In this document: one piece after another, positions 12,001-15,000 of the stretch
How the letters are laid out: each line of letters opens with the position of its first letter
Numbering within the stretch: the stretch's first letter is position 1
DNA from: Escherichia coli
Lineage (GTDB): Bacteria; Pseudomonadota; Gammaproteobacteria; Enterobacterales; Enterobacteriaceae
Strand: one strand, 5' to 3'
Assembly: GCF_003018115.1 (NCBI RefSeq)
Contig: NZ_CP027457.1
Length of the DNA: 64,000 nt
Program-made: the position numbers

Positions 12001-15000
12001 GTGCAATACCATCAAAGGTCTGCGTGGCTGCACTTTTTACCTGCGACATACTGTCCGTGGCGCTCTCTTCCCACTCACTCCAGCCGGACTTCAGGCCTGC
12101 CATCCAGCTCCCGCGAAGCTGGTCTTCAGCCGCCCAGGTCTTTTTCTGCTCTGACATGACGTTATTCAGCGCCAGAGGATTATCGCCATACTGTTCCTTC
12201 AGGCGCTGTTCCGTGGCTTCCCGCGCTGCCTGCCGGTCAGTCAGCCCCCGGTTTTTTGCATCAATGGCGGCCCGTTTTGCCCGTTGCTGCTGTGCGAATT
12301 TATCCGCCTGCTGCGCCAGCGCGTTCAGGCGCTCCTGATACGTAACCTTGTCGCCAAGTGCAGCCAGCTGGCGTTTGTACTCCAGCGTCTCATCTTTATG
12401 CGCCAGCAGGGATTTCTCCTGTGCGGACAGCTGGCGACGTTGTGCCGTCTCCTCCAGTACCGCGAACTGACTTTCTGCCTTCCACAAATCCCGGCGCTGC
12501 TGGCTGATTTTCTCATTCGCTCCGGCATGCTTCTCCAGCGTCCGGAGTTCTGCCTGAAGCGTCAGCAGGGCAGCATGAGCACTGTCCTCCTGACGATCGC
12601 CCGCAGACACCTTCACGCCGGACTGTTTCGGCTTTTTCAGCGTCGCTTCATAATCCTTTTTCGCCGCCGCCATCAGCGTGTTGTAATCCGCCTGCAGGAT
12701 TTTCCCGTCTTTCAGTGCCTTGTTCAGTTCTTCCTGACGGGCGGTATATTTCTCCAGCGGCGTCTGCAGGCGTTCGTAAGCCTTCTGCGCCTCTTCGGTA
12801 TATTTCAGCCGTGACGCTTCGGTATCGCTCTGCTGCTGCGCATTTTTGTCCTGTTGAGTCTGCTGCTCAGCCTTCTTTCGGGCGGCTTCAAGCGCAAGAC
12901 GGGCCTTTTCACGATCATCCCAGTAACGCGCCCGCGCTTCATCGTTAACAAAATAATCATCCTTGCGCAGATTCCAGATGTCGTCTGCTTTCTTAAACGC
13001 AGCCTCTGCCTTAATCAGCATCTCCTGCGCGGTATCAGGACGACCAATATCCAGCACCGCATCCCACATGGATTTGAATGCCCGTGCAGTCCTGTCTGCC
13101 CAGGTCTCCAGCGTGCCCATGTTCTCTTTCAGGCGGCGGGTCTGGTCATCAAACCCTTTCGTTGCGGCCTCGTTCGCTGCCTGCAATGCCCCGGCCTCAT
13201 CGCCGGAACGCTGCAACTGAGCAACATACGCAATCTGCTCCGCCGTCACGTTATGGAACTGGCGCGCCATCGCCGTCAGCCCCGACGTCGGGTCTGTGGT
13301 CAGCTTCCCGAAGGCTTCAGCGACCTTGTCCACCTCCACGCCGGATGCAGAGGAGAAACGCGCCACACTCTGGCTGATGGACGCAATCTGAGCCTCACCG
13401 CTTACCCCCGCCTTAACCAGTGCGCTGAGTGACTCGCTGGTCTGGTTAAACGTCAGCCCTGCCGCCTGCCCGGCTCTGGACAGGACCAGCATGCGATCTG
13501 CCGTCAGACCTGACTGATGACCGGAAAGGACCAGCGTTTTGTTGAACTCAGACAGGGTTGAGTTGCCCTGATACCAGGCATACGCCAGCGCACCGGTCGC
13601 CACTGCCAGCGAGGTGGCCCCGACCATCGGCAGGGTGATCGCACCGGCAAGCCCCCTGAACATGGGGATCATCCCGCCGAAGGAGTCCTTCACCTGACCA
13701 CCCTGTTGCAGCAGGATCAGCCACGGACTCTGCCCGCCTGCAAGCTGCGTGGCCACGTCGGTGAACTGCGCAGGCAGCATACGCATGGCGGCTTTATACT
13801 GCCCGACGGAAATCCCCGCTTTCTGTGCAGCCAGCGCCTGCCGGCTCATCGACTGTTCAACGACTGCCGCTGTTTTTTTCGCATCACTTTCCGTACCGGA
13901 AAAATGACGCCTGACTCTGGCCATCTGCTCGTCAAATCTGGCCGCATCCAGACTTAAATCAACGACCAGATCGCCTACCGGTTCAGCCATACCGGACTCC
14001 TCCTGCGATCCCTTCTGATACTGTCATCAGCATTACGTCATCCTCCGTCATGTCCGCCACATCCGGGGAAGCGGGGATAACTTCATTCCCGTCCGGGCCA
14101 AAACGAACGCCTCCGGCAAGCCCTGCCGCTTTCTGCATCAGCACATCATCTTCAGGCTCTTCGTCAGCCTCACGCCGGTTCAGCAGACTGAAATCCAGCG
14201 GATGCATATCCGGATCGCTGAAAAACAGGCTGAGCACGGTGTACGTCAGCCCGGAAAAGTGCATATCCAGCAGAACATCATGAAAATAATGGGTACTGTA
14301 AAAGCGGTGCCAGTCGGCATACTCCGTGGATGACATCCCGGCAAGCATGGCACGCCAGTCGGGTCGCCCCATCTCGCGCGCCAGTTTCAGGGCAAAACTC
14401 AGCTCACCGTCGAACACTTTCCCGCAGAAACAGGCTCTGCAGGCCCGGCGTCCTCTGCCTGTTCAGGGGCATTATTCACCACAAACTCAGACATTCCGGA
14501 CAGACGTAACACCACGTTTTCAGCCTGAGCAATTGCCTCCGTGGGCCAGGTGGTAAGCACTTCCTGCTCAATCTGCGTAATGGCTTCATTCATGGACGGC
14601 AGCTTTGTCTTCTGCGGATGGTTATGCCACAGAGACATCGCCACCAGAAACGCCCCGCCTCTGATAAGATCCTCTACAGACACCTGCAGGTTGCCACTGG
14701 ATTCAGCCTTTTTTTCCTGCTCTTTCAACCAGGCGAGATGCTCAATACGCTGCAGGGCTGACAGTTCAGAAAGCGTGACGGTCACGCCGTTATATTCAAA
14801 TGATTCGGTTTTCAGGAACATCGCTGACTCTCCGGATTAACTGGCGGTGACGGTGATTTCTGCAACCGCAGCAAACTCACCATTACTGGATACAACCGGA
14901 ATGTTGACCTTGCCTGCAGCAACGCCGTTCACGGTGATGGTCATACCACTGACCGACACGGTGGCTTTTGTTTTATCCGCAGACACCGCACGAAAGCTCT

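What the first reader, a model, noticed from the sequence alone, without database searches (positions are those of the whole stretch)
14399..14423. Conserved G-T programmed -1 frameshift site
The slippery heptamer GGGAAAG is present at the 3' end of G (plus-strand ctttccc at 14417..14423), and the downstream T ORF (13983..14417) is in the -1 frame. The tail assembly chaperone pair G and G-T is therefore predicted to be made as in lambda.
Basis: partly seen in the sequence, partly recalled or inferred. Interest (0 to 1): 0.25.

Follow-up and report, generated by a model that had tools for sequence, protein, structure and literature searches.

The report
Lambda-type G-T tail chaperone frameshift site
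This is the textbook phage-lambda "slippery" site, where about 1 ribosome in 30 slips back one base to make a longer tail-assembly protein; here it sits unchanged in a lambda-like prophage of E. coli, so it is real but ordinary.

Summary
GGGAAAG lies on the minus strand at 14423..14417, in phase G_GGA_AAG (Gly134-Lys135 of the 140-aa G ORF, 14821..14399). The -1 frame is open from 14462 to its stop at 13985..13983 and encodes the lambda T domain.

- **Identity to lambda:** the 64 nt around the site (14377..14440) match phage lambda exactly. T is 100% and V 99.6% identical to lambda at the protein level.
- **Families:** G and T hit the lambda G and T families (PF06894, TIGR01674; PF06223, TIGR01715).
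- **Specificity:** of 13 in-phase X_XXY_YYZ heptamers in the 18 late ORFs, only this one opens a long -1 extension (144 codons, against 1-25 for the others).
- **Conservation:** the same in-phase heptamer is in 80 of 82 related loci. Sequence variability switches from G-frame to T-frame third positions at the heptamer.
- **Distant relatives:** Gifsy-1, mEp460, mEp237 and an Stx phage carry G_GAA_AAG or A_AAA_AAG at the same place.
- **Stimulators:** none is supported, in line with the lambda literature.
- **Prophage:** it sits at argU, its late genes look intact, and it is about 96-97% identical to phage genome records (PhiR68_2 and others).

The predicted products are G (15.3 kDa) and GT (279 aa, 30.9 kDa). 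The feature is already known and of low interest. Production of GT was not tested.

The parts
14417..14423 (-). Slippery heptamer G_GGA_AAG (Gly134-Lys135 of G). After a -1 slip the tRNAs re-pair with GGG_AAA, and base 14417 is read again as the first base of GUG.
   Evidence: identical to lambda J02459 10109..10115
14399..14821 (-). Gene G, the tail assembly chaperone: zero-frame product of 140 aa, 15.3 kDa. ATG at 14821, TGA at 14401..14399.
   Evidence: PF06894 E=5.6e-53; TIGR01674 equivalog E=4e-57; 82.9% aa identity to lambda G
13983..14417 (-). T segment, the -1 frame read after the shift (144 codons plus stop). It is made only as the C-terminal part of the 279-aa GT fusion join(14821..14417, 14417..13983).
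   Evidence: PF06223; TIGR01715 E=2e-56; phrog_32165 (full-length GT profile) matched by G at positions 1-142 and by T at 137-285; 100% aa identity to lambda T
14399..14462 (-). The 64-nt zone where both the G frame and the -1 (T) frame are open. This is the only place a productive shift can occur, and it holds one in-phase X_XXY_YYZ.
14828..14833 (-). Shine-Dalgarno-like GGAGAG, 6 nt upstream of the G start codon. V's stop TAA is at 14839..14837.
   Evidence: direct reading
13983..13990 (-). ATGGCTGA overlap: the H start codon (13990..13988) overlaps the end of T (stop 13985..13983), as in lambda.
11441..13990 (-). Gene H, the tape measure protein (849 aa), which is the binding partner of the G domain.
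   Evidence: PF06791 and PF09718; role from PMC5009743
14837..15577 (-). Gene V, the major tail tube protein (246 aa from the lambda-equivalent ATG), which is the binding partner of the T domain.
   Evidence: PF16461; 245/246 identical to lambda V; role from PMC5009743

Best explanation
This is the lambda G/GT programmed -1 ribosomal frameshift site, carried unchanged by a lambda-like prophage integrated at argU in E. coli.

During late gene expression, most ribosomes translating G read GGA-AAG and then five more codons, and stop at UGA (14401..14399). That gives the 140-aa chaperone G. A small fraction is expected to behave differently. In lambda this fraction is about 4%, giving a G:GT ratio of about 30:1 (PMC3296357, PMC5009743). 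In those ribosomes, tRNA-Gly and the single tRNA-Lys (mnm5s2UUU, which pairs weakly with AAG) slip back one base onto GGG-AAA. Translation then continues in the -1 frame through 144 more codons, giving the 279-aa GT fusion.

G and the G part of GT coat the tape-measure protein H. The T domain recruits the tail-tube protein V. Neither G nor GT ends up in the virion.

Shown here: the sequence, phase, frame architecture, homology, synteny, conservation, and the switch of coding constraint at the heptamer. Inferred from lambda: the shift itself, its rate and the protein functions.
For: - The heptamer is in phase and is the only productive slip site.
- 64 nt around it are identical to lambda, and 94.4% of the 1001-nt region is identical.
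- T is 100% and V 99.6% identical to lambda's proteins.
- G and T match equivalog and Pfam models. A PHROG profile of full-length GT fusions is matched end to end by G plus T, joined at the heptamer.
- 80 of 82 related loci keep the in-phase GGGAAAG even where G falls to 66% and T to 75% identity.
- Variability peaks at G-frame third positions upstream (0.162 against 0.09 and 0.068). It peaks at T-frame third positions downstream (0.062 against 0.015 and 0.019), including the 24 nt before G's stop.
- Distant homologues (T 37-63% identical) have G_GAA_AAG or A_AAA_AAG at the same position.
- The 18 late ORFs examined are open, at sizes similar to lambda's genes. The prophage is 96-97% identical to phage genome records from E. 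coli ECOR strains.
- Mechanism and roles come from PMC5009743, PMC3296357 and PMC7618472.
Against: No protein or expression data exist for this prophage. The left end of the prophage lies outside the window, so completeness is not proven. Heptamer invariance among close relatives is partly shared ancestry. The heptamer by itself is not over-represented in the window. Database annotations (RefSeq PGAP, J02459) list T as a separate CDS, although this is a known annotation convention or artefact.
Confidence: 0.95

Rival explanations
1. T is an independent gene translated from its own start (GTG at 14417 or the internal ATG of 'MGRPDW'), as most database records annotate it, and no frameshift is needed.
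For: J02459, HK630 and RefSeq PGAP list T as a stand-alone CDS from the GTG. IdasGreatGrand starts it at an internal ATG.
Against: - Annotators disagree on the start.
- No Shine-Dalgarno sequence lies at a proper distance before the GTG: the GGGA is only 2-3 nt away.
- T-frame coding constraint begins right at the heptamer, upstream of the internal ATG.
- tblastn alignments of the T frame reach the heptamer-encoded Gly-Lys (query residue 1 or 2) even at 37-44% identity.
- Full-length GT profiles exist.
- In lambda, GT is made by frameshifting (PMC5009743, PMC3296357).
Confidence: 0.02
2. The site is a relic in a silent or defective prophage. The sequence is lambda-like but is never used because the prophage cannot express its late genes.
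For: The prophage sits at argU, where E. coli K-12 carries the defective DLP12 (own knowledge), with a DLP12-like early and lysis region. The left prophage end is outside the window. Some related contigs do carry frame-disrupting indels in G or T (L005, L074).
Against: All late ORFs from Nu1 to tfa are open at sizes similar to lambda's genes. Q, S, R, Rz, cI, cro, O, P and int are present, by comparison with PhiR68_2. The whole prophage is 96-97% identical to phage genome records from ECOR strains. This rival concerns usage only; it does not change what the site is.
Confidence: 0.08
3. The fusion arises from transcriptional slippage of RNA polymerase, or the heptamer is a chance occurrence with no recoding role.
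For: The heptamer occurs 13 times in the window, not significantly more than in shuffles.
Against: A run of only three A's is too short for efficient polymerase slippage (own knowledge). Only 1 of 13 in-phase heptamers opens a long frame. The site is invariant in 80 of 82 loci while flanking wobble positions vary. An A_AAG-ending shift site is kept in distant relatives.
Confidence: 0.01

Closest known systems
Bacteriophage lambda G / GT tail assembly chaperone -1 programmed frameshift (Levin, Hendrix & Casjens 1993; Xu, Hendrix & Duda 2004, 2013, 2014)
   Same: Same heptamer G_GGA_AAG, same phase and same distance to G's stop. The surrounding 64 nt are identical. T is 100% identical, V 99.6% identical, and the V-G-T-H order and the T/H ATGGCTGA overlap are the same.
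   Different: G is a mosaic allele, 82.9% identical to lambda G, with a strongly diverged segment at alignment columns ~100-175 of A1. That segment carries an extra in-phase A_AAA_AAG. H is 849 aa rather than 853. The element is a prophage at argU with a DLP12-like early region.
G-T-type frameshifts of more distant lambdoid phages (Gifsy-1, mEp460, mEp237, mEp043, Stx-converting phages)
   Same: Same gene order, the same -1 relation of the two ORFs, a short overlap (25-64 nt), and a shift site ending in A_AAG at the equivalent position.
   Different: Their shift sites are G_GAA_AAG or A_AAA_AAG, not G_GGA_AAG. Their T domains are only 37-63% identical.
E. coli dnaX -1 frameshift (A_AAA_AAG with an upstream Shine-Dalgarno-like element and a downstream hairpin)
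   Same: A tandem -1 slip that exploits the weak AAG pairing of the single E. coli tRNA-Lys (PMC5009743).
   Different: dnaX is about 50% efficient and depends on stimulators (own knowledge). No stimulator is supported here. There is no Shine-Dalgarno-like element at dnaX-type spacing. The downstream fold has z = -2.0 with no compensatory changes in 38 pairs. The upstream hairpin is not conserved. Lambda-type sites are reported to work without stimulators at low efficiency (PMC5009743).

Membership tests
Lambda-type G/GT tail assembly chaperone -1 PRF | Two overlapping ORFs located between the major tail (V) gene and the tape measure (H) gene | tested here: met
   V 14837..15577, G 14399..14821, T frame 13983..14462, H 11441..13990, all on the minus strand
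Lambda-type G/GT tail assembly chaperone -1 PRF | The downstream ORF is in the -1 frame relative to the upstream ORF and overlaps its 3' end | tested here: met
   Frame arithmetic; 64-nt overlap
Lambda-type G/GT tail assembly chaperone -1 PRF | An in-phase slippery heptamer X_XXY_YYZ inside the overlap | tested here: met
   G_GGA_AAG at 14423..14417 is the only one in the overlap. It is the only one of 13 in the late ORFs with a long -1 extension
Lambda-type G/GT tail assembly chaperone -1 PRF | Homology of the two parts to lambda gpG and gpT | tested here: met
   PF06894 5.6e-53 and PF06223 2.2e-14; TIGR01674 and TIGR01715 equivalogs above cut-off; phrog_32165 GT profile
Lambda-type G/GT tail assembly chaperone -1 PRF | The shift site is conserved among homologues while flanking synonymous positions vary, and coding constraint switches frame at the site | tested here: met
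   80 of 82 loci; codon-position variability switch; A_AAG-ending sites in distant relatives
Lambda-type G/GT tail assembly chaperone -1 PRF | Production of a trans-frame GT protein at a few percent of G, required for tail assembly | not testable with these tools
   Needs protein analysis or a reporter assay. Known for lambda, whose site sequence is identical (PMC5009743, PMC3296357)
Stimulator-dependent -1 PRF (dnaX / IS-element type) | A conserved downstream hairpin or pseudoknot 5-9 nt from the heptamer, and/or an upstream Shine-Dalgarno-like element | tested here: inconclusive
   A downstream 120-nt fold starts 7 nt after the heptamer, with z = -2.0 (9 of 200 shuffles fold as well). None of the 38 consensus pairs shows a compensatory change, but the sequence is too conserved to decide. 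No Shine-Dalgarno-like element was seen.

The most novel reading that the evidence does not exclude
The G allele in this window, unlike lambda's, carries a second in-phase heptamer at 14714..14708: A_AAA_AAG (codons 36-38, a run of 7 A's). This is the dnaX-type motif that PMC5009743 lists as a -1 shifty heptamer in E. coli. A -1 shift there ends at UGA after one codon. The motif might therefore act as a selected 'ribosome sink' that lowers total G and GT output or yields a 39-aa peptide, adding a second recoding layer to tail-chaperone dosage. The evidence does not exclude this. Equally, it fits a neutral hitchhiker of a 96-99% identical allele, which is present in 17 of 84 loci.
Probability: 0.04. 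Interest if true: 0.3.

Novelty: already known. Interest (0 to 1): 0.06.

Why it matters
This matters mainly for annotation quality. The correct product is a 279-aa GT fusion made by -1 slippage. RefSeq and many GenBank records still list 'T' as a free-standing gene from an arbitrary GTG or ATG start. The G-T region is widespread: 3,511 of 5,426 complete E. coli genomes hold a match. Biologically nothing new is learned. The site confirms that this argU prophage carries an intact lambda-type tail-assembly module.

Tried and rejected
- **Downstream stimulatory RNA structure.** The 120 nt after the heptamer fold somewhat better than shuffles (z = -2.0). A 14-sequence alignment shows no compensatory pair (0 of 38). 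The only hairpin at canonical spacing is a weak, GU-rich 6-bp stem. Not supported, and the literature says none is needed.
- **Upstream hairpin.** CCUGCAGAG/UUCUGCGGG overlaps the GGG of the heptamer. The regional z-score is 0.17, and the 5' arm is absent in divergent relatives (L069, L073). Rejected.
- **dnaX-like Shine-Dalgarno element upstream.** Not seen on reading.
- **Rfam.** No family matches at the site.
- **Solved structures.** No PDB sequence relative of GT at E <= 0.01.
- **Xu et al. 2013 (PMC3762263).** Not held, so the rate and the lack of stimulators are cited second-hand from reviews.
- **Strict XXXYYYZ scan on distant relatives.** It missed their G_GAA_AAG sites, which were found by eye in the printed flanks.
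- **Exact source genome.** Not found: the best match among complete E. coli genomes is 99.1% for G-T.

Full report
**1. Observation**

Reading the minus strand shows ...CCT GTT TCT GCG GGA AAG TGT TCG ACG GTG AGC TGA. The heptamer GGGAAAG occupies 14423..14417.

Frame arithmetic places its first G at the third position of codon 133 of the G ORF (14821..14399, 140 aa). The phase is therefore G_GGA_AAG, the canonical X_XXY_YYZ arrangement.

The -1 frame has 12 stops within G upstream of the site, the last at 14465..14463. It is then open from 14462 to TGA at 13985..13983. The 'T ORF 13983..14417' of the finding is the mechanical ORF whose GTG begins on the last base of the heptamer.

The heptamer alone is not statistically remarkable: 13 copies in the window against 7.7 +/- 3.0 in shuffles. 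The context is what counts. Among 13 in-phase X_XXY_YYZ heptamers in the 18 late ORFs (18.3 kb), this is the only one followed by a long -1 frame, 144 codons against 1-25 for the rest.

**2. What it is**

- **Similarity to lambda.** The 1-kb region is 94.4% identical to phage lambda J02459 9632..10632 and 98.8% identical to other E. coli phages. In lambda the corresponding features are annotated V, G (140), T (144) and H.
- **Alignment.** The window is identical to lambda over alignment columns 391-454, which is window 14377..14440 and includes the heptamer. The central part of G is a diverged mosaic segment.
- **Protein families.**
  - G matches PF06894 (5.6e-53) and the TIGR01674 equivalog.
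  - The T frame matches PF06223 and the TIGR01715 equivalog.
  - H and V match the lambda tape-measure and tail-tube families.
- **GT profile.** A PHROG family built from full-length GT fusions (phrog_32165, 290 positions) is covered by G at 1-142 and by the T frame at 137-285, so the join falls at the heptamer.
- **Partners.** T is 100% and V 245/246 identical to lambda's proteins. G is 82.9% identical.
- **Predicted fusion.** The product is join(14821..14417, 14417..13983), 279 aa and 30.9 kDa. G is 15.3 kDa.

**3. Conservation**

Eighty IMG/VR loci and four reference loci were fetched (and others). In 82 loci with both parts, located independently by tblastn, 80 have T in the -1 frame with GGGAAAG as the only in-phase slippery heptamer in the overlap. 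This holds although G falls to 66% and T to 75% identity.

The two exceptions still contain the heptamer but carry indels:
- L005 has an indel upstream that creates a stop in G.
- L074 has lost one base in the T-run just 5' of the site, and has a second shift inside T.

These look like sequencing errors or decayed copies.

In 57 unique sequences, variability is highest at G-frame third positions upstream of the heptamer (0.162 against 0.09 and 0.068). Downstream it is highest at T-frame third positions (0.062 against 0.015 and 0.019), including the 24 nt that still lie within G. Purifying selection therefore changes frame at the heptamer, as expected if translation does. One caveat: the alignment was anchored on the heptamer, so the heptamer's own invariance rests.

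In more distant phages (T 37-63% identical) the equivalent position carries G_GAA_AAG or A_AAA_AAG:
- G_GAA_AAG: Gifsy-1 (whose record annotates the frameshift), mEp460, a Providencia phage, mEp237 and mEp043.
- A_AAA_AAG: an Stx2d phage.

The exact heptamer is thus a feature of the lambda clade. The A_AAG Lys slip is the deeper conserved element.

**4. Mechanism**

From the literature read here:
- Lambda uses low-level -1 frameshifting to set a G:GT ratio of about 30:1, which is crucial for tail assembly.
- G and the G part of GT bind the tape measure gpH, and the T domain binds gpV. Neither is in the virion.
- The zero frame is kept about 96% of the time.
- The rate depends on thiolation of tRNA-Lys(UUU), which reads both AAG and AAA (PMC3296357; PMC7618472).

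My own tests agree that there is no clear stimulator:
- The downstream fold is only marginally better than shuffles (z = -2.0) and has no compensatory changes.
- An upstream hairpin is not conserved.
- I saw no Shine-Dalgarno-like element.

The sequence architecture is shown here. The shift itself, its rate and the protein roles are inferred from lambda, on the strength of identical site sequence and near-identical partners.

**5. Context**

- **Host.** The host flank is E. coli: fimZ/sfm and tRNA-Arg(tct) at 44935..45011, 99.8% identical to E. coli genomes.
- **Integrase.** The integrase gene (43756..44919) abuts the tRNA.
- **Late genes.** Nu1 through tfa run on the minus strand from ~24.3 kb to ~1.2 kb, with open ORFs of sizes similar to lambda's genes.
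- **Early and lysis region.** By comparison with phage PhiR68_2, this region is DLP12-like. It holds bor, Rz, R, S, porin, Q, rusA, ninE, ybcK-N, ren, P, O, cII, cro, cI, gam, bet, exo and int.
- **Relatives.** The prophage is 96-97% identical to phage genome records from ECOR strains, which argues against a dead relic. Its left end is beyond the window.

**6. Comparison and novelty**

This is the lambda G/GT site itself, in a lambda relative. All testable membership criteria are met. Only protein production could not be tested.

RefSeq still annotates G and T separately. The region occurs in 3,511 of 5,426 complete E. coli genomes. Novelty: already known. Interest: low.

The one unexpected detail is a second in-phase heptamer, A_AAA_AAG, in this G allele (14714..14708). 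A -1 shift there would abort after one codon. It is probably neutral.

Noticed in passing
window 14708..14714 (minus strand), inside G: There is a second in-phase slippery heptamer, A_AAA_AAG (codons Glu36-Lys37-Lys38, a run of 7 A's). It is absent from lambda's G allele. A -1 shift there meets TGA after one codon, giving a 39-aa product. It is present in 17 of 84 fetched loci, all carrying the window-type G allele.
   Followed up: partly
window 13983..14417; L001, L003, L004: Public records annotate T inconsistently as a stand-alone CDS. J02459, HK630 and RefSeq PGAP start it at the GTG that is the last base of the heptamer. IdasGreatGrand and others start it at an internal ATG. Only some records (Gifsy-1, and product names in HK630 and mEp237) mention the frameshift.
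   Followed up: yes
L005:1840-1910; L074:1880-1910; L068:1960-2010: Three related IMG/VR contigs carry lesions. L005 has an indel upstream of the heptamer that creates a stop in G. L074 has lost one T in the T-run just 5' of the heptamer and has a further frame change inside T. L068 has a deletion in the T domain. These are either sequencing errors or decaying prophages.
   Followed up: partly
window 37822..38844 and 38866..39372 (+): Two ORFs (340 and 168 aa) lie immediately downstream of the cI-like repressor (36949..37698), at the position of lambda rexA/rexB. Neither has a Pfam or PADLOC hit. They are annotated 'hypothetical' in PhiR68_2, and a related phage has 'PD-lambda-1' among its features in this part of the genome. 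They are possible prophage-encoded defence genes.
   Followed up: partly
window 1290..1488 (-); 243..374 and 1292..1423: Rfam family IS009 matches at 229 bits inside the tail-fibre-assembly region. A 132-nt direct repeat (88% identical) links that region to a second tfa fragment near the window start, next to a class I SAM-dependent methyltransferase ORF at 524..1192.
   Followed up: no
window 24300..45011: The prophage is integrated at argU (tRNA-Arg tct, 44935..45011), beside fimZ/sfm. It has a DLP12-like early and lysis region with an intact porin gene (27369..28466, PF00267) lying antisense between Q and the holin gene. It also has a ybcK-like large serine recombinase (31903..33429) in addition to the tyrosine-type integrase at 43756..44919.
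   Followed up: partly
window 35591..35686: Tandem 48-nt repeats (73% identical) containing repeated TTACCTGATTCAGGTAA-like units lie inside the O replication gene (35082..36101). They are presumably the origin iterons.
   Followed up: no
L086-L090 (Gifsy-1, mEp460, Providencia PSTCR8lys, mEp237, mEp043): Distant G-T homologues use G_GAA_AAG, which is not a strict XXXYYYZ, at the equivalent position 1-5 codons before G's stop. A strict heptamer scan misses these sites.
   Followed up: partly
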